The notes under the pieces are model-generated. The model made no database searches, was not told the DNA's origin, and was given only the letters and a program-made list of their open reading frames with translations. Shown here piece after piece: positions 13,167-64,000 of a stretch of DNA of 64,000 nucleotides. Both the position numbers and the translations under genes were made by a program. The DNA is from Staphylococcus sp. CAG:324 (GTDB lineage Bacteria > Bacillota_I > Bacilli_A > ML615J-28 > CAG-313), in NCBI GenBank assembly GCA_000433035.1, contig FR890814.1, positions 5,443 to 69,442 of the forward strand, written 5' to 3'. The first letter of the stretch is position 1. Each line of letters begins with the position of its first letter.

Positions 13167-13251
13167 ATAAAATTTAACACATTTTGTCGAAAACGTTTTC
13201 TGATAATTTTTCTTTACTTTTTTTTTTTAATATATTATAATATTAGAGTAA

Positions 13252-13320
13252 AAGTCATATATTTCTGATAATATGGTTCAGAAGTCTCTACATTATCACC
13301 GTAAATGATAATACTATGGT
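13252..13320 (+). ncRNA. Purine riboswitch of the guanine class (C at the discriminator position).
   Basis: UCAUAUA...UCUGA-UAAUAUGGU-UCAGA...AGUCUCUACA...UUAUCA-CCGUAAA-UGAUAA...UAC-UAUGG matches the P1/P2/P3 layout of the xpt G-box. An upstream TATAAT lies at 13236-13241. Confidence 0.6.
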
Positions 13321-13394
13321 AACAATTGAATAATTGCTTAAAAACCGCTGTTATGGCTTTTTACAACAAAAAATTTTTAAGGAGGACTTCTTTA

Positions 13395-14912
13395 ATGGAA
13401 GACAAAAAACAAAAAAATGTTGGGAAGCTCGACAGCTTTTTTGGCGTTTCTAAAGCAGGCTCAACAATTAAAGTAGAAGTGTTAGCTGGTGTTGCAACAT
13501 TTCTTGCGATGGCTTACATCTTAACTGTTAATCCTAATTCTATGTTATGGGGTGGTACAGCAGATGTACGTTGGTCGTCAGTATTTATTGCTACTGCTCT
13601 TGGTGCTGTAATTGGTACTTTATTAATGGCCCTACTTGCTAAAATGCCTCTTGCTCAAGCATCTGGTATGGGATTAAATTCAATGGTTGGTTCTATTCTT
13701 GGTGGAGCATTTGGATTTACCTTCTCATTTGGTAACGCTATGTTACTAATTTTAATTAGTGGTATTATCTTCTTACTTCTTTCTGTAATACCAGCTGGAC
13801 GTGATAAAGAAACCAAAAAATTAATTACTTTAAGAGAATTGATTTTTATTGGTATGCCAAAACCTGTTCGTACCGCAATACCTGTTGGTATTGGTTTATT
13901 TATTGCCTTCATTGGTTTACAAAATTCTCATCTTGTTCAAAATAATGATTTTACTCTTTTACAATTTGTTGATTTTACGCAAGCAGGAGCATGGGCAAAA
14001 GGTGGCGATGCTAGAGCAGCAGTAGTAGCACTTTTTAGTTTTGTTGTCATTGCTGTTCTTTCACATTTTAAAGTCAAAGGTGCCGTTGTTTTTGGTATTC
14101 TTGCCGCAACTTTACTTGCATGGCCATTAGGAGTTACTAATATTGATTATCTTCTTGGTAAAACGGATGGCGTAACTTGGAAATTCTGGGAAAATTTTGC
14201 TAATTTCTTTTCATTTGATCCAAATAATGGTGGTATCTTCGGTGCTGCTTTTACAGAAGGTTTTAACTTTCCAAAAGATTCTTTGATGACATGTGTAATG
14301 TTAATTATTACTTTTGCAATGATTGATATGTTTGATACAATGGGTACAGTTGTTGGATGCTGTGCTAATGCTAATTTATTAGACGAAAATGGTGTTCCAA
14401 AAAATTATGATAAAATCATGCTATCAGATTCAGTTGCTACATGTACTGGTGCAATCTTAGGTACTTCAACGGTTACAACTTTTGTTGAATCTGGTGCTGG
14501 TGTTGCAGCAGGTGGAAAAACAGGTTTAACTGCTTTAGTTACTGCTATCTTATTCTTATTATCAATTTTCTTATTACCAGTATTTGCTTTTATTCCAAGT
14601 GCAGCAGCAGCAGGTGCTTTATTATATGTTGGTGTATTAATGATGTCTAATGTTAAAAATATTGATTTCTCATCACCTAAATCTGCCGTTCCTGCTTTTG
14701 TTACAATTGCAATGATGCCTTTTGCCTATTCAATTACTGATGGTATTGGTCTTGGTCTTATAACTTATGTTATTATTTCAATATTTACTTTCTTTATAGA
14801 TTTGATTAAATATGCTTGTCATAAAGGTGAAAAACCTAAATGGGATATTTCAGTTGTAGCTATTATAGTAACTGCGTTATTCTTAGTATATTTCTTAGTT
14901 CCAACTGTTTAA
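13395..14912 (+). CDS. pbuG: Guanine/hypoxanthine permease (NCS2/AzgA-PbuG family).
   Basis: VSKAGSTIKVEVLAGVATFLAMAYILTVNP is the AzgA/PbuG N-terminal signature. RBS GGAGG lies 9 nt upstream of the ATG at 13395. Confidence 0.75.
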   Translation: MEDKKQKNVGKLDSFFGVSKAGSTIKVEVLAGVATFLAMAYILTVNPNSMLWGGTADVRWSSVFIATALGAVIGTLLMALLAKMPLAQASGMGLNSMVGSILGGAFGFTFSFGNAMLLILISGIIFLLLSVIPAGRDKETKKLITLRELIFIGMPKPVRTAIPVGIGLFIAFIGLQNSHLVQNNDFTLLQFVDFTQAGAWAKGGDARAAVVALFSFVVIAVLSHFKVKGAVVFGILAATLLAWPLGVTNIDYLLGKTDGVTWKFWENFANFFSFDPNNGGIFGAAFTEGFNFPKDSLMTCVMLIITFAMIDMFDTMGTVVGCCANANLLDENGVPKNYDKIMLSDSVATCTGAILGTSTVTTFVESGAGVAAGGKTGLTALVTAILFLLSIFLLPVFAFIPSAAAAGALLYVGVLMMSNVKNIDFSSPKSAVPAFVTIAMMPFAYSITDGIGLGLITYVIISIFTFFIDLIKYACHKGEKPKWDISVVAIIVTALFLVYFLVPTV

Positions 14913-60341: not shown

Positions 60342-60451
60342 TATAATCCCTCCATTAAAAATGGTGAGCTCTCATTTAGCTCACCTTGTTGAACAATATT
60401 TGCTTAAATATATTGTATCACAGATTTTTATTTAAGTCAAGATATTCAATT

Positions 60452-63061
60452 CTAATTATTATGCTTTTTATATCCAAATGCTTTAGCAATTTCCATTACT
60501 ATTACAATCATAAACGATAATCCTAAACATATTAGTAAATCTTTTAACTGAAGAGCAACTAAGCCAAAGACATTCGTATTTAAACCTGGAGTATAAATAA
60601 CAACCAATTGTAAAATAAAACCAATTACAAAAGCAAAATTCAACGATTTATTATTAAAAATGTTTTGTTTAAAAATAGATTTTTCACTTTTAATATTATA
60701 CGAATGAAATAATTGTAAACTAGATAAAGTGAAAAAAGCCATCGTTTGACCAACGATATGATCTTGTTTAGAACCAATTAAATAAGCAACTAAAGTTAAT
60801 ACACCAATTAAAATACCTTCTAAGGCAATCTCATATCCCAATTTATTAGCAAAAAATCCTTCGGTTTTTGGTCTTGGCATTTTATCCATCTCATCATTGG
60901 AAGCTTTTTCCATTCCAAGACCAAAAGCTGGTAAAGAATCGGTTATTAAATTAATCCATAAAAGATGAATAGGAGAAAGTGGTACTCCTAAATTAAGACC
61001 AAAAAGAGCAATGAAAGAAGCAAGGAAAATTGTTAGGACTTCTCCAATGTTACTCGATAAAAGATATTTTACACATTTTTTAACATTATTGTAAATACCT
61101 CTTCCCTCTTTAACTGCTTCTACAATAGTAGTAAAATTATCATCGGCTAAAATCATATCTGCAGCTTCTTTAGAAACATCCGTACCTGTAATTCCCATTG
61201 CACAACCAATATCGGCCTTTTTTAGAGCTGGCGAATCATTGACACCATCTCCGGTCATTGAAACTACTTTCCCTTTTTTTTGCCACATTTCAACAATTCT
61301 TACTTTATCCTCAGGGGATACTCTCGCATAAACAGCATAATCTTCAATCTGATTACCTAATTCTTCATCAGACATTTTTTGCAATTCCTCTGATGAAATG
61401 GCTCTATATCCATCTTTTAGAATATTTAGTTCCTTTGCGATTGCCGAAGCAGTTGTAATATGGTCGCCTGTAATCATGATGGTTCTAATTCCTGCCTTAC
61501 TAGCAACCTCTATTGCCTCTTTAACTTCTGGTCTAGCCGGATCAATCATACCCACTAAACCAAGAAAAGTTAAATTCTCTTCTAAGTTTTCATTACATTC
61601 GGGTTTATTTGCATGAGCCTTGATTCCTAAGCCTAAAACCCTTAATGCCCGCGATGCCATATTCGTATTTGCATTTAAAATTTCTTGTTTTTCCTTATCA
61701 CTTAATAATGCATGATGTAATATAATATCCGGTGCTCCTTTAGTAATACTAAGATAATGATTATTCACCTTTACTACAACTGTCATCATTTTTCTAATTG
61801 AATCAAAGGGTAAATCTGCTACTCTTTCTATTTTATCAATTGGTCTGCCATATAAATTATTGAATTCAATTAAAGCTGTCTCAGTAGGATCACCTATGCG
61901 TTTTTCTACACCATCTACATTAGTGATTTGAGCATCACAACAAAGAGCAAAGTAAGTGATTAATTCTTTATCATCTTCAGTTAAATTTTTAAGTTTTTTA
62001 TTTGTATGATGATATAATTCTTGAACGGTCATTTTATTTTGCGTTAACGTTCCTGTCTTATCACAACATATAATAGATGTGGATCCAAGAGTTTCTACCG
62101 CAGGTAATTTCTTAACAATTGCATTCTTTTTAGCCATATTGCCAACACCAATGGCAAGAATAATTGTCACAACCGTTGCAAGTCCCTCAGGAATAGCGGC
62201 AACTGCTAAAGCAATGGCTGTTTTAAAAGCATCTAGTAAATATGTATCTGATGTTCCTTTCGTTGTTAACATTTCTAAAAAGAAAACGACAACACATATA
62301 ATAATAGACATGATCCCAATCACTTTACCAACTTGTGATAATTTTCGTTGCAAAGGGGTAGTCTGATTGTCATCTCCAATTAGCATTCCTGCAATTTTAC
62401 CGATTTCTGTTTTCATTCCAACTTCTGTTACAACTGCTTTGGCTTTTCCGTTTGTTACAAAGGTTGAGGAAAATAACATATTTTTACGATTACCTAAAGC
62501 AATTTCTTTATCCTCTATTCCATCAATGACATCAGAAATTTTTTCTACCGTTACTGATTCACCAGTTAATGCTGATTCATCCACTCTTAAATGAGAACAT
62601 TCAATAATTCTTGCATCAGCAGGAATAAAATCCCCTGCTTCAACCATAATAATATCTCCCACAACTAAGTGAATCGTTTCAATTGGAATCACTTTTCCAT
62701 CTCTTAAAACTTTACACATTGGAGATGACATTTTTTTTAATGCCTCTAAACTTTTTTCAGCTTTGTTTTCTTGAATGATTCCAAGAATTGCATTAATAAT
62801 TATAACAATAAAAATTATTAAACTTTCAACCCATTCACGAGGATCAATAATAAGTGATACGACTGCTGCTACCATTAAAATAATAATCAAAACATCTTTA
62901 AATTCTAAAAAGAATTTAATTAACATACTTTGTTTTTTCTTTTCAGTTAATTCATTTTTGCCATTCTTATCTAATCTATTCTGTGCCTCATTACTAGTAA
63001 GTCCCTTATCAAGATTAGTATTTAATTTTTTTTCTACCTCATTAATTTTAAATTTATACAT
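60452..63061 (-). CDS. P2-type cation-transporting ATPase (Ca2+/Mn2+ efflux type).
   Basis: ICCDKTGTLT, PEGL (AIPEGLATVV), TGDGVNDSPALKKADIG and a 10-TM profile. Confidence 0.85.
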   Translation of the reverse strand: MYKFKINEVEKKLNTNLDKGLTSNEAQNRLDKNGKNELTEKKKQSMLIKFFLEFKDVLIIILMVAAVVSLIIDPREWVESLIIFIVIIINAILGIIQENKAEKSLEALKKMSSPMCKVLRDGKVIPIETIHLVVGDIIMVEAGDFIPADARIIECSHLRVDESALTGESVTVEKISDVIDGIEDKEIALGNRKNMLFSSTFVTNGKAKAVVTEVGMKTEIGKIAGMLIGDDNQTTPLQRKLSQVGKVIGIMSIIICVVVFFLEMLTTKGTSDTYLLDAFKTAIALAVAAIPEGLATVVTIILAIGVGNMAKKNAIVKKLPAVETLGSTSIICCDKTGTLTQNKMTVQELYHHTNKKLKNLTEDDKELITYFALCCDAQITNVDGVEKRIGDPTETALIEFNNLYGRPIDKIERVADLPFDSIRKMMTVVVKVNNHYLSITKGAPDIILHHALLSDKEKQEILNANTNMASRALRVLGLGIKAHANKPECNENLEENLTFLGLVGMIDPARPEVKEAIEVASKAGIRTIMITGDHITTASAIAKELNILKDGYRAISSEELQKMSDEELGNQIEDYAVYARVSPEDKVRIVEMWQKKGKVVSMTGDGVNDSPALKKADIGCAMGITGTDVSKEAADMILADDNFTTIVEAVKEGRGIYNNVKKCVKYLLSSNIGEVLTIFLASFIALFGLNLGVPLSPIHLLWINLITDSLPAFGLGMEKASNDEMDKMPRPKTEGFFANKLGYEIALEGILIGVLTLVAYLIGSKQDHIVGQTMAFFTLSSLQLFHSYNIKSEKSIFKQNIFNNKSLNFAFVIGFILQLVVIYTPGLNTNVFGLVALQLKDLLICLGLSFMIVIVMEIAKAFGYKKHNN

Positions 63062-63075
63062 TTTTCCTCCTTGCT

Positions 63076-63245
63076 ATAAAAAAAGACCCCTAACCGTTTT
63101 CGGCTAAAGGTCTTGCAATCATAAAATGATTAATGATAATTATATCCGAATAGCATATTTTACTATTGGTTTGACGAATATAATCTATAACACTATTAGT
63201 GTTATATTGCTACTCCCCTTTAAGGAATTTCTTTTATACAGACCA
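63076..63245 (-). ncRNA. yybP-ykoY (Mn2+) riboswitch leader of the P-type ATPase, with an intrinsic terminator.
   Basis: The minus strand carries the hallmark AAAGGGGAGUAGC. The 5' end GGUCU duplicates the terminator's 3' arm (AGACC...GGGUCU followed by U7), so P1.1 formation would sequester AGACC (antitermination). The terminator ends 10 nt before the RBS. Confidence 0.6.
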
Positions 63246-63273
63246 TTATAATTCAAACGATTTAGTTTGTCAA
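63245..63273 (-). promoter_or_regulatory. Consensus sigma-A promoter TTGACA-17-TATAAT driving the riboswitch and ATPase.
   Basis: Minus strand reads TTGACAAACTAAATCGTTTGAATTATAATGGTC. Confidence 0.6.
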
Positions 63274-63378: not shown

Positions 63379-64000
63379 TCAATTTAAATCCTTATTAGAT
63401 GGATTATCAATTAATTTTCCCTTTTTAGTAAATCTTGATCCATGACAAGGACAATCCCAAGTTTGTTCTTCATCGTTCCAAACCAAAGCACAACCAAGAT
63501 GAGGACATCTTTTGGTTCTAAAATTTAATAAATTTTTTAAATAACTACCCAGATTAATAAATAATTGTTTTTTAAAAATATTACGATTGGGACGATATAA
63601 TTTTTGATATACATTCCTTCTATTCATTACTAAATCTCTTAATATCAAAGCACTAATCATAGACTGAGTCATCCCCCATAAATTGAAACCTGTTGCCACA
63701 TATAAGATTTCTGAGAAATTGCTATATTTACCGATATAGGGTATATCATCAAGCGTTATACAATCTTGGTTAGCCCACATATATTCAATTTTCGCATTTG
63801 GATAATAATTATTCACAAAAGAAATCAAATTCTCATAGTGATATCCACCATTTGCTGTCTTATGATCATTACCACCAATGAGTAAATATTCTTTATACTT
63901 TCTAAAATAGAACCCCGTTGTTTCTAAATTCGTATAAGTACCACCTATATCTTCATCATTTTTAATAGCAATAACATAGGAACGATTTTGAAACATTTTT
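63379..64000 (-). CDS. FAD-dependent oxidoreductase with a C-terminal Rieske [2Fe-2S] domain. This is a C-terminal fragment; the N-terminus lies beyond the window.
   Basis: CPHLGCALVWNDEEQTWDCPCHGSRF is a CxH...CxxH Rieske motif. Confidence 0.6.
   Translation of the reverse strand, partial: KMFQNRSYVIAIKNDEDIGGTYTNLETTGFYFRKYKEYLLIGGNDHKTANGGYHYENLISFVNNYYPNAKIEYMWANQDCITLDDIPYIGKYSNFSEILYVATGFNLWGMTQSMISALILRDLVMNRRNVYQKLYRPNRNIFKKQLFINLGSYLKNLLNFRTKRCPHLGCALVWNDEEQTWDCPCHGSRFTKKGKLIDNPSNKDLN

What the first reader, a model, noticed from the sequence alone, without database searches (positions are those of the whole stretch)
63076..63273. Mn2+-type (yybP-ykoY) riboswitch with a clear terminator/antiterminator design upstream of the P2-type ATPase
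Behind a consensus promoter, the leader contains the family hallmark GGGGAGUAG.

The first five transcribed nucleotides (GGUCU) are identical to the 3' arm of the downstream terminator (AGACC-UUUAGCCGAAAACGGUUAG-GGGUCU followed by U7). The ligand-stabilised P1.1 helix (5' GGUCU with AGACC) would therefore block terminator formation. This is the known ON-switch logic of this class.

It implies the 869-aa ATPase is a Mn2+ (or Mn2+/Ca2+) exporter rather than a dedicated Ca2+ pump.
Basis: partly seen in the sequence, partly recalled or inferred. Interest (0 to 1): 0.55.

Follow-up and report, generated by a model that had tools for sequence, protein, structure and literature searches.

The report
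Manganese riboswitch before a cation pump
This is an ordinary member of the well-known manganese-sensing (yybP-ykoY) riboswitch family. It sits in front of a calcium/manganese-type P-type ATPase in an uncultured gut Mollicutes genome.

Summary
On the minus strand, 63273..63061 holds a perfect sigma-70 promoter, a 125-nt aptamer (63226..63102), an intrinsic terminator (63114..63083 plus U7), an RBS and the start of an 869-aa P-type ATPase.

Rfam's RF00080 does not reach its gathering score here (15.7 vs 45 bits). The same model also fails on the validated E. coli mntP riboswitch (41.6 bits). So that miss is a false negative.

Covariance models built from leaders of ATPase homologues, without the window, hit 63226..63102 at 58.1 bits (E about 1e-11). 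All 35 pairs are canonical and it is the only hit in 64 kb.

L1 (GGGGAGUAG / AAGA), L3 (UCAAACC, with the Mn-contacting adenine) and helices P1.1, P1.2, P2, P3.1, P3.2 and P4 are all present.

GGTCT abuts the -10 box, is AGTCG in the 94%-identical relative, and is absent from the family. The real P1.1 is UUAAAGG/CCUUUAG. Its 3' strand, plus the conserved AAGA, forms the terminator's 5' arm. This is the classic ON switch.

A Mn2+ role for the pump is plausible but unproven. Verdict: a new member of a known kind, of low interest.

The parts
63268..63273 (-). -35 hexamer TTGACA
   Evidence: 12/12 promoter match. Conserved in L001.
63245..63250 (-). -10 hexamer TATAAT, 17-nt spacer
   Evidence: Conserved in L001.
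63240..63244 (-). It is most likely promoter discriminator DNA and not part of the RNA.
   Evidence: It abuts the -10 hexamer. It reads AGTCG in L001. It is absent from 48 of 50 family members.
63237..63239 (-). Predicted transcription start, 6-8 nt after the -10 hexamer. The conserved block GTATAAAAG begins here.
   Evidence: Inference from promoter geometry. Conservation with L001 resumes at 63239. Not mapped experimentally.
63102..63226 (-). yybP-ykoY aptamer (four-way junction); full-length match to the custom covariance models
   Evidence: R1: 43.8 bits, E 1.1e-7. R2: 58.1 bits, E 7.6e-12, with no non-canonical pair. Only hit in the window. RF00080: 15.7 bits, E 0.034, below threshold.
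63217..63223 (-). P1.1 5' strand, UUAAAGG
   Evidence: alignment; coordinates. Same AAAGG as L. lactis A3-G7 (PMC9190785).
63211..63216 (-). L1 5' side, GGAGUA (part of the hallmark GGGGAGUAG, 63218..63210)
   Evidence: GGGAGUA is invariant across all 43 homologous leaders in A5; the next base is G in 39 and A in 4.
63208..63210 (-). P1.2 5' strand, GCA
   Evidence: Covaries in the family: GC/GC changes to GU/AC (helix 2).
63186..63206 (-). P2 hairpin, UAUAACAC-UAAUA-GUGUUAUA
   Evidence: The differences from L001 are confined to the loop.
63139..63184 (-). P3 arm: P3.1 (AUUAUAUUCG / CGGAUAUAAU), L3 and the P3.2 hairpin
   Evidence: Family covariation in helices 4 and 5.
63168..63174 (-). L3 loop, UCAAACC. 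C63173 and A63172 correspond to the metal-contacting C40 and A41 of L. lactis.
   Evidence: Metal-site nucleotides from PMC9190785 and PMC6649816. Seven nucleotides, as in L. lactis U39-C45.
63118..63137 (-). P4 hairpin, AUCAU-UAAUCAUUUU-AUGAU
   Evidence: The differences from L001 are in the loop.
63115..63117 (-). P1.2 3' strand, UGC
63111..63114 (-). L1 3' side, AAGA (the invariant AGA). Also the first bases of the terminator's 5' arm.
   Evidence: Invariant AGA described in PMC6649816.
63104..63110 (-). P1.1 3' strand, CCUUUAG. The switch segment, shared with the terminator's 5' arm.
63083..63114 (-). Intrinsic terminator hairpin: 14-bp stem, AAAA loop, about -19 kcal/mol
63078..63084 (-). 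U7 tract of the terminator
63066..63072 (-). Ribosome-binding site AAGGAGG. Not sequestered by the terminator.
60452..63061 (-). 869-aa P-type (type II) cation ATPase, the regulated gene
   Evidence: Nearest solved structure is LMCA1, E 8e-206.
60363..60385 (-). Terminator-like hairpin after the ATPase and before rimP. Suggests a monocistronic unit.
   Evidence: Consensus scan only.

Best explanation
The leader at 63239..63062 (minus strand) is a canonical four-way-junction yybP-ykoY riboswitch that works as a transcriptional ON switch for the downstream P-type ATPase.

Shown by sequence analysis:
- The aptamer (63226..63102) has both conserved halves of loop L1 (GGGGAGUAG / AAGA).
- Loop L3 is UCAAACC and carries the equivalents of the metal-contacting C40 and A41.
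- Helices P1.1, P1.2, P2, P3.1, P3.2 and P4 are present in the family order.
- The 5' arm of the terminator (63114..63101) consists of the L1 3' nucleotides AAGA, the P1.1 3' strand CCUUUAG and three further bases.
- So the P1.1/L1 structure and the terminator are mutually exclusive.

Inferred from the L. lactis and S. pneumoniae systems:
- With Mn2+ bound between L1 and L3, the two helical legs dock and P1.1 (UUAAAGG/CCUUUAG) is stabilised.
- The terminator then cannot nucleate, and RNA polymerase reads through into the ATPase gene.
- Without Mn2+, the 3' strand of P1.1 is captured by the stronger terminator stem (about -19 kcal/mol) and transcription stops at the U7 tract.
- The RBS lies outside all these structures, so control is purely transcriptional.
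- The pump is then induced under Mn2+ excess and most likely exports Mn2+, possibly Ca2+ as well.
For: Covariance models:
- R1 was built only from six spirochaete and clostridial ATPase leaders, with a hand-drawn six-helix structure. It finds the window element end to end (43.8 bits, E 1.1e-7 in 1.4 Mb searched). It also finds the validated E. coli mntP riboswitch (32.7 bits).
- R2 was built from 43 sequences, excluding the window and L001. It gives 58.1 bits, E 7.6e-12, with all 35 pairs canonical. This is the only hit in the 64-kb window.

Family structure and context:
- In the alignment used for R2, 94.2% of cells are paired, against 35-47% when partners are slid. 33 of 35 pairs show double changes.
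- 51 of 80 ATPase-homologue loci carry the element just upstream of the gene.
- 46 of 50 distinct expression platforms are terminators whose 5' arm starts at the conserved AGAC.

This locus:
- Promoter and terminator are found by the consensus scan.
- Unconstrained folding gives P2, P3, P4 and the terminator, with z = -6.3.
- The nine differences from L001 between the -10 hexamer and the start codon fall in hairpin loops, the discriminator or unpaired leader, never in a stem.

Literature:
- P1.1 = A3-G7/C96-U100 and the MB site = G9, U39, C40, A41, U44, C45 in L. lactis (PMC9190785).
- The same riboswitch class activates the P-type ATPases YoaB and MgtA (PMC6649816, PMC8632737).
Against: - Rfam RF00080 does not reach its gathering score (no hit; 15.7 vs 45 bits). 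This is weakened by the failed positive control (E. coli mntP at 41.6 bits).
- No experiment was done: ligand, transcription start and read-through are all inferred.
- My covariation counts come from an alignment fitted to the model, which leans towards the structure.
- The S. pneumoniae aptamer binds Ca2+ more tightly than Mn2+ in vitro, although Mn2+ activates it best (PMC6649816). Ligand identity therefore cannot be read from the fold alone.
- The window's pump belongs to the ATPase clade in which only 8 of 33 members have the riboswitch.
Confidence: 0.88

Rival explanations
1. The transcript starts with GGUCU (63244-63240). This pentamer pairs with AGACC (63113-63109) as the ligand-stabilised P1.1 and so competes with the identical GGUCU of the terminator's 3' arm.
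For: The pentamer is really present twice. A GGUCU/AGACC duplex is about as stable in isolation (-5.4 kcal/mol) as the canonical P1.1 (-4.9 kcal/mol).
Against: - GGTCT directly abuts the -10 hexamer, so it is probably not transcribed (promoter geometry; inference).
- It reads AGTCG in L001, which would leave 3 of 5 pairs, while AGACC and the terminator are identical.
- Only 2 of 50 family members have any such upstream copy.
- AGA is the invariant 3' side of L1, and CC pairs with the GG that precedes L1 in every family member (PMC9190785, PMC11087558). Pairing AGACC elsewhere would destroy the metal-binding core.
Confidence: 0.03
2. A yybP-ykoY-fold aptamer whose physiological signal is Ca2+, or Ca2+ and Mn2+ together, matched to a genuine Ca2+ pump.
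For: - The regulated protein is most similar to the Ca2+ pump LMCA1. The only transporter-specific NCBIfam model whose cut-off it passes is a Ca2+-ATPase model (TIGR01517).
- Its ion-site residues include the SERCA-like M5 Glu and M6 Asn/Thr/Asp.
- The S. pneumoniae mgtA aptamer binds Ca2+ with higher affinity than Mn2+ in vitro (PMC6649816).
Against: - In S. pneumoniae, Mn2+, not Ca2+, activates read-through efficiently in vitro and in vivo (PMC6649816).
- The L1/L3 metal-site nucleotides here match those of Mn2+-sensing members, including the soft-ligand A41 N7 equivalent (PMC9190785).
- No Ca2+-specific member of the class is known (my knowledge).
Confidence: 0.07
3. No riboswitch. The leader merely contains a chance GGGGAGUAG and a constitutive attenuator or terminator.
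For: No RF00080 hit at the gathering score. The AT-rich sequence folds into hairpins easily.
Against: - Independent covariance models give E about 1e-7 to 1e-11, with all helices and both conserved loops in register.
- The Rfam positive control fails.
- The same architecture recurs upstream of 51 homologous pumps.
Confidence: 0.02

Closest known systems
Lactococcus lactis yoaB yybP-ykoY riboswitch (crystal structure 4Y1I)
   Same: - Four-way junction with P2 and P4.
- Identical P1.1 core, AAAGG/CCUUU.
- L1 is GGGGAGUAG / AAGA.
- L3 is 7 nt and begins UCAA, with the A41 equivalent.
- A transcriptional ON switch in which the 3' half of P1.1 is also the terminator's 5' arm.
- Controls a P-type ATPase (PMC9190785, PMC11087558, PMC8632737).
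   Different: - Much more AT-rich (29% GC).
- Longer P2 and P3.1 stems.
- L3 is UCAAACC rather than UCAAUUC. The L. lactis L3 sequence is my recollection, consistent with the published numbering.
- Host is an uncultured gut Mollicutes-type bacterium.
- No experimental data.
Streptococcus pneumoniae mgtA (caxP) Mn2+ riboswitch
   Same: Same family and the same gene class (PII-type ATPase). Terminator-based activation by Mn2+ (PMC6649816).
   Different: - The pneumococcal aptamer is a three-way junction, with P4 replaced by UNAAA.
- Its platform reaches the RBS.
- Here all four helices are present and the RBS is free.
Escherichia coli mntP riboswitch
   Same: Four-way-junction yybP-ykoY aptamer. 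Recognised by model R1, which was built without any E. coli sequence and also recognises the window element. It also scores 57.3 bits with R2, of which it is a training sequence.
   Different: mntP is a translational switch controlling an MntP-family exporter (PMC12153347). The window element is a terminator-based switch controlling a P-type ATPase.
Listeria monocytogenes LMCA1 (Ca2+-ATPase, PDB 6ZHF/9EUQ), for the protein
   Same: Best solved-structure match (689 bits, E 8e-206). Shares the PEGL motif in M4 and the N..D motif in M6.
   Different: - LMCA1 has Ala at the SERCA E771 position, Asn at T799 and Arg at E908.
- The window protein has Glu, Thr and Gln at those positions.
- This places it in a different clade of the 80 homologues.

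Membership tests
yybP-ykoY (Mn2+) riboswitch, Rfam RF00080 | Score at or above the Rfam gathering threshold (45 bits) | tested here: not met
   No hit at gathering. 15.7 bits, E 0.034, in a 551-nt search. The control shows the model is insensitive: validated E. coli mntP scores 41.6 bits, and none of 17 homologous leaders is reported at gathering. The model consensus as printed has no P1 pairs and no AAGAC 3' motif.
yybP-ykoY (Mn2+) riboswitch | Conserved L1 5' strand, GGGGAGUAG | tested here: met
   63218..63210. GGGAGUA is invariant in all 43 homologous leaders; the following base is G in 39 and A in 4.
yybP-ykoY (Mn2+) riboswitch | Invariant AGA on the 3' side of L1, immediately before the P1.1 3' strand | tested here: met
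   AAGA at 63114..63111, followed by CCUUUAG. Feature as described in PMC6649816.
yybP-ykoY (Mn2+) riboswitch | L3 internal loop with the invariant metal-contacting C and A (L. lactis C40/A41) | tested here: met
   UCAAACC at 63174..63168, with C63173 and A63172. Definition from PMC9190785 and PMC6649816.
yybP-ykoY (Mn2+) riboswitch | Two coaxial legs joined by a 3- or 4-way junction (P1.1/P1.2/P2 and P3.1/P3.2/P4), with helices supported by covariation | tested here: met
   All six helices form with canonical pairs in the window. Family covariation: 33 of 35 pairs with double changes, and 94% paired against 35-47% when slid. That alignment was fitted to the model. Tertiary docking itself is not testable here.
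yybP-ykoY (Mn2+) riboswitch | C-G receptor pair at the L3-proximal end of P3.1, for the cross-helix A-minor contact | tested here: met
   C63176-G63147 is present. The equivalent column pair is C-G in 42 of 43 relatives (columns 75/126). The contact itself is not testable.
yybP-ykoY (Mn2+) riboswitch | P1.1 switch helix whose 3' half pairs alternatively in the expression platform | tested here: met
   The terminator's 5' arm (63114..63101) contains the P1.1 3' strand (63110..63104). The same design is seen in 46 of 50 relatives. Principle from PMC11087558 and PMC12153347.
yybP-ykoY (Mn2+) riboswitch | Homology to validated members by an independent covariance model | tested here: met
   R1 and R2 hit the window (43.8 and 58.1 bits). 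R1, built without E. coli sequence, also hits E. coli mntP at 32.7 bits; mntP scores 57.3 bits with R2, of which it is a training sequence.
yybP-ykoY (Mn2+) riboswitch | Located upstream of a Mn2+-homeostasis gene class (MntP, TerC, P-type ATPase and others) | tested here: met
   The P-type ATPase starts 41 nt after the aptamer's end. Precedents are YoaB and MgtA (PMC8632737).
yybP-ykoY (Mn2+) riboswitch | Selective Mn2+ binding and Mn2+-dependent gene activation | not testable with these tools
   Needs ITC or in-line probing, termination assays, or reporters.
P-type ATPase, type II (Ca2+/Mn2+-type) | DKTGT phosphorylation motif, PEGL in M4, GDGxND hinge, N- and C-terminal cation-ATPase domains | tested here: met
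   CDKTGTLT, IPEGL and TGDGVND are all in the translation. Pfam E1-E2_ATPase, Cation_ATPase_N, Cation_ATPase_C and Hydrolase are all above their cut-offs.
P-type ATPase, specific NCBIfam equivalogs | Score above the curated cut-off | tested here: inconclusive
   Above the cut-off only for PMCA-type TIGR01517 (527.9 vs 507.05) and the generic TIGR01494. Below it for PMR1-type (663.5 vs 798.3) and SERCA-type (634.5 vs 703.4). Ion specificity cannot be assigned.

The most novel reading that the evidence does not exclude
Among the 80 nearest homologues the pumps split into two clades by ion-site residues.
- One clade is LMCA1-like: Ala or Gly at the SERCA E771 position and Arg at E908. It is almost always riboswitch-controlled (44 of 47).
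- The other has Glu and Gln at those positions and is rarely riboswitch-controlled (8 of 33). The window's pump lies in this second clade.

The most novel reading not excluded is that the Mn2+ riboswitch was recruited separately onto a mechanistically different pump. That pump may have two ion sites or be Ca2+-preferring. The element would then couple Mn2+ stress to Ca2+ (or mixed-cation) efflux, or the Glu/Gln clade would be a distinct, unrecognised kind of Mn2+ pump.
Probability: 0.12. Interest if true: 0.4.

Novelty: new member of a known kind. Interest (0 to 1): 0.15.

Why it matters
For annotation, it assigns a regulatory RNA and a likely inducing signal (excess Mn2+) to a pump that would otherwise be labelled a calcium ATPase, in an uncultured gut Mollicutes lineage.

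It also gives a practical warning. The Rfam RF00080 model used here misses this element. It also misses about 50 clear homologous leaders and scores the textbook E. coli mntP riboswitch below threshold. Scans that rely on the gathering score will therefore under-call Mn2+ riboswitches, especially the ATPase-linked ones in low-GC Bacillota.

Biologically it adds nothing new to the known mechanism.

Tried and rejected
- **Rfam at gathering score on the window.** Only a purine riboswitch was found.
- **Rfam at gathering score on 17 related loci.** No RF00080 hit.
- **Rfam in permissive mode.** It gave the E. coli control at 41.6 bits and none of the seven ATPase leaders. I therefore rejected Rfam as the arbiter.
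- **MAFFT plus RNAalifold on 15 and 18 leaders.** This predicted no structure, because the variable P2, P3.2 and P4 lengths misalign. I replaced it with a hand-annotated six-sequence seed and Infernal realignment.
- **The 5' hairpin AUUCCUU/GGGGAGU.** It appears in the unconstrained fold. I considered it as an OFF-state sequestor of L1 and rejected it as unsupported, because L001 carries a mismatch in it.
- **The primary papers.** I tried to read Price 2015 and Dambach 2015; neither is held. I used later open papers that restate their findings.
Considered and rejected.

Full report
**What is in the sequence**

The feature lies on the minus strand. Reading 5' to 3', it contains:
- a perfect sigma-70-type promoter, TTGACA (63273-63268), a 17-nt spacer and TATAAT (63250-63245), scoring 12/12;
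- the pentamer GGTCT (63244-63240), directly after the -10 hexamer;
- an A-rich stretch;
- GGGGAGTAG (63218-63210);
- three hairpins;
- TTGCAAGACCTTTAG (63118-63104);
- a 14-bp hairpin, AAGACCTTTAGCCG-AAAA-CGGTTAGGGGTCTT (63114-63083), running into seven T;
- AAGGAGG (63072-63066);
- the ATG (63061) of an 869-aa ORF that ends at 60452.

The terminator scan found one site where shuffles give 0.1. The ORF is a type II P-type ATPase:
- Pfam E1-E2_ATPase, Cation_ATPase_N, Cation_ATPase_C and Hydrolase all match.
- The best NCBIfam models are all Ca2+-ATPase types.
- The nearest solved structure is the Listeria Ca2+ pump LMCA1, at 689 bits.

**The Rfam test and why it does not decide**

- At the gathering score, the window gives only a purine riboswitch at 13235-13336.
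- In a permissive 551-nt search, RF00080 appears at 63230..63066 with 15.7 bits, against a gathering score of 45 (E 0.034).
- Only the 5' half (L1, P2, P3) is convincingly aligned. The model consensus as printed has no P1 pairs and no AAGAC motif.

I then ran controls.
- Seventeen loci encoding homologous pumps have leaders that visibly carry GGGAGUAG...AAGAC plus a terminator. They gave no RF00080 hit at gathering.
- The experimentally validated E. coli mntP riboswitch scored 41.6 bits, also below threshold. Seven ATPase leaders searched with it were not listed even at E <= 10.

The Rfam miss is therefore a sensitivity problem of that model, not evidence against the element.

**An independent membership test**

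The ATPase protein retrieved 80 loci from species-representative genomes. L001, an 'uncultured Mollicutes bacterium UMGS116', is 94% identical. All the others are 42-49% identical.

I hand-annotated a six-helix structure (P1.1, P1.2, P2, P3.1, P3.2, P4) on six spirochaete and clostridial leaders and built model R1.
- R1 finds the window element end to end at 63226..63102, at 43.8 bits and E 1.1e-7 over 0.71 Mb searched on both strands.
- It also finds E. coli mntP at 32.7 bits.

I realigned 43 hits, excluding the window and L001, and obtained model R2.
- R2 scores the window at 58.1 bits, E 7.6e-12.
- No non-canonical pair is flagged in any of the 35 modelled pairs.
- This is the only hit in the whole 64-kb window.

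On the 43-sequence alignment:
- 94.2% of cells form standard pairs, against 35-47% when the 3' partners are slid;
- 33 of 35 pairs show changes on both sides.

One caveat applies: the alignment was fitted to the model, which favours the structure. R2 also recovers elements in L006, L045 and L077, which were not used to build it.

**Anatomy in the window**

| Element | Sequence | Coordinates |
|---|---|---|
| P1.1 | UUAAAGG with CCUUUAG | 63223-63217 with 63110-63104 |
| L1 5' side | GGAGUA | 63216-63211 |
| L1 3' side | AAGA | 63114-63111 |
| P1.2 | GCA with UGC | 63210-63208 with 63117-63115 |
| P2 | UAUAACAC-UAAUA-GUGUUAUA | 63206-63186 |
| P3.1 | AUUAUAUUCG with CGGAUAUAAU | within 63184-63139 |
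| L3 | UCAAACC | 63174-63168 |
| P3.2 | AAUAG with CUAUU | within 63184-63139 |
| P4 | AUCAU with AUGAU | 63137-63118 |

Comparison with the L. lactis crystal structure:
- There, P1.1 is A3-G7/C96-U100, and the Mn2+ site is formed by G9 (L1) and U39, C40, A41, U44 and C45 (L3) (PMC9190785).
- The window has the same AAAGG/CCUUU core.
- It has a 7-nt L3 beginning UCAA, so C63173 and A63172 are the C40 and A41 equivalents.
- The C-G pair next to L3, which receives the L1 adenosine (PMC6649816, PMC12153347), is present as C63176-G63147.
- The window has both P2 and P4, so it is a four-way junction like L. lactis and mntP. It is not a three-way variant like S. pneumoniae mgtA (no P4) or E. coli alx (no P2).

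The terminator's 5' arm (63114-63101) is made of three parts: the L1 3' bases AAGA, the whole P1.1 3' strand CCUUUAG, and CCG. The docked aptamer and the terminator therefore exclude each other directly, with no separate antiterminator.

This is the published mechanism. Mn2+ stabilises the P1.1 'switch helix', whose 3' segment otherwise partitions into the terminator. P1.1 mutations also hit the terminator stem (PMC11087558; PMC12153347).

Folding supports this picture.
- Unconstrained folding of the full leader gives P2, P3, P4 and the terminator (-52.5 kcal/mol, z = -6.3).
- The terminator alone is about -19 kcal/mol.
- Forcing P1.1 and P1.2 costs about 14 kcal/mol (-38.4 against -52.5 kcal/mol). 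That difference is what ligand-dependent tertiary docking and kinetics must overcome.
- Of 50 distinct platforms in relatives, 46 are terminators whose 5' arm starts at the conserved AGAC.

Four observations speak against this.
1. GGTCT touches the -10 hexamer. Transcription normally begins 6-8 nt downstream of that hexamer, here G63239 to A63237 (established promoter geometry; inference).
2. In L001 the pentamer is AGTCG, while the rest of the leader is 95% identical and AGACC and the terminator are unchanged. Conservation resumes at exactly 63239.
3. Only 2 of 50 family members, one being the window, have an upstream copy of the complement of AGAC(C/U).
4. AGA is the invariant L1 3' strand, and CC forms the two nucleating G-C pairs of the real P1.1. 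Pairing them elsewhere would dismantle the metal-binding core.

The terminal GGUCU of the terminator is simply the complement of the conserved AGACC, and it recurs across the family for that reason. The ON-switch logic is right. The helix assignment is not.

**The pump**

The literature supports the link. The same riboswitch class controls the P-type ATPases YoaB (L. lactis) and MgtA (S. pneumoniae). MgtA is induced by Mn2+ and protects against Mn2+ toxicity, and it was first described as a Ca2+ exporter (PMC6649816, PMC8632737).

The link is also common here: 51 of the 80 homologue loci carry the element. Counting the window as well, 52 of the 80 pump sequences in the alignment have it.

Aligning the 80 pumps, and mapping SERCA ion-site positions through the LMCA1 and SPCA1 alignments, shows the following.
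- The M4 Glu, M5 Asn, and M6 Asn and Asp are invariant in the 80 aligned pumps (one further, truncated sequence has gaps there). The M6 Thr is Ser in one riboswitch-less homologue.
- Two positions split the set into two clades.
  - Glu at E771 and Gln at E908: 33 proteins, of which 8 have the riboswitch.
  - Ala or Gly at E771 and Arg at E908, as in LMCA1: 47 proteins, of which 44 have the riboswitch.
- Fisher's exact test gives p = 8e-11, not corrected for phylogeny.

The window's pump is of the Glu/Gln kind. In a neighbour-joining tree it sits with L001 next to an Erysipelothrix pump that also has the riboswitch.

Two consequences follow.
- Riboswitch control in this clade is patchy but recurrent within Bacillota.
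- The almost always riboswitch-linked clade contains a biochemically proven Ca2+ pump.

**Verdict**

This is a bona fide, conventional yybP-ykoY Mn2+ riboswitch with a terminator-based ON platform, in front of a type II P-type ATPase. It is a new member of a known kind, in an uncultured low-GC gut bacterium. The mechanism is that of L. lactis yoaB. Nothing about it would surprise a specialist.

Two side results have some practical value: the failure of the Rfam model on this subclass, and the clade-specific association between the riboswitch and the pumps' ion-site residues.

Noticed in passing
window 13235-13336 (+): A purine riboswitch aptamer (RF00167, 76.8 bits, E 6e-12). It lies directly upstream of, and overlaps the annotated start of, a 528-aa membrane ORF at 13326-14912 that looks like a nucleobase permease. 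This appears to be an ordinary arrangement.
   Followed up: partly
L081 962-1058 (E. coli K-12 mntP leader) and loci L001-L080: The Rfam 15 RF00080 model scores the validated E. coli mntP riboswitch at 41.6 bits, below its own gathering score of 45. It reports none of the roughly 50 ATPase-linked Mn2+ riboswitches that the custom models R1 and R2 find easily. Its printed consensus lacks the P1 pairs and the 3' AAGAC motif.
   Followed up: yes
ATPase ORFs of the window (60452-63061) and L001-L080: The pumps form two clades defined by the residues at the SERCA E771 and E908 positions. Glu/Gln: riboswitch in 8 of 33. Ala or Gly/Arg, LMCA1-like: riboswitch in 44 of 47. Fisher p = 8e-11, not corrected for phylogeny. 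The window's pump is Glu/Gln.
   Followed up: partly
Alignment A5 (leaders of L019, L023, L027, L033, L053-L055, L059-L061, L064, L068, L070 and others): About half of the ATPase-linked aptamers (21-23 of 43), mostly from Lachnospiraceae-type genomes, lack P2 entirely. That makes them three-way junctions of the P2-less kind. PMC12153347 describes this architecture for E. coli alx and states that alx-like riboswitches are exclusive to Enterobacterales.
   Followed up: no
L057 2215-2300: A c-di-GMP-I riboswitch (81.8 bits) lies about 430 nt upstream of that locus's Mn2+ riboswitch (2730-2847) and its ATPase. I did not examine whether the two RNAs control the same transcript.
   Followed up: no
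window 63228-63212 (-): In the unconstrained (terminator-state) fold, AUUCCUU pairs with GGGGAGU. This would sequester the L1 5' strand in the OFF state. L001 has a U-to-G change that breaks one pair, so it may be fortuitous.
   Followed up: partly
window 60363-60440 (-): Between the ATPase stop (60452) and rimP (start 60341) lie a promoter-like site (60440-60412, 10/12 with TG) and a terminator-like hairpin (60385-60363). The order, promoter then terminator then rimP, is odd and was not examined. The genes downstream form the usual rimP-nusA-ylxR-L7Ae-infB cluster.
   Followed up: no
window 63379-63996 (-): The upstream ORF combines the C-terminal part of a FAD-dependent oxidoreductase (DAO) with a Rieske [2Fe-2S] domain. 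Its N-terminus probably lies beyond the window end. No terminator was detected between it and the riboswitch promoter.
   Followed up: no
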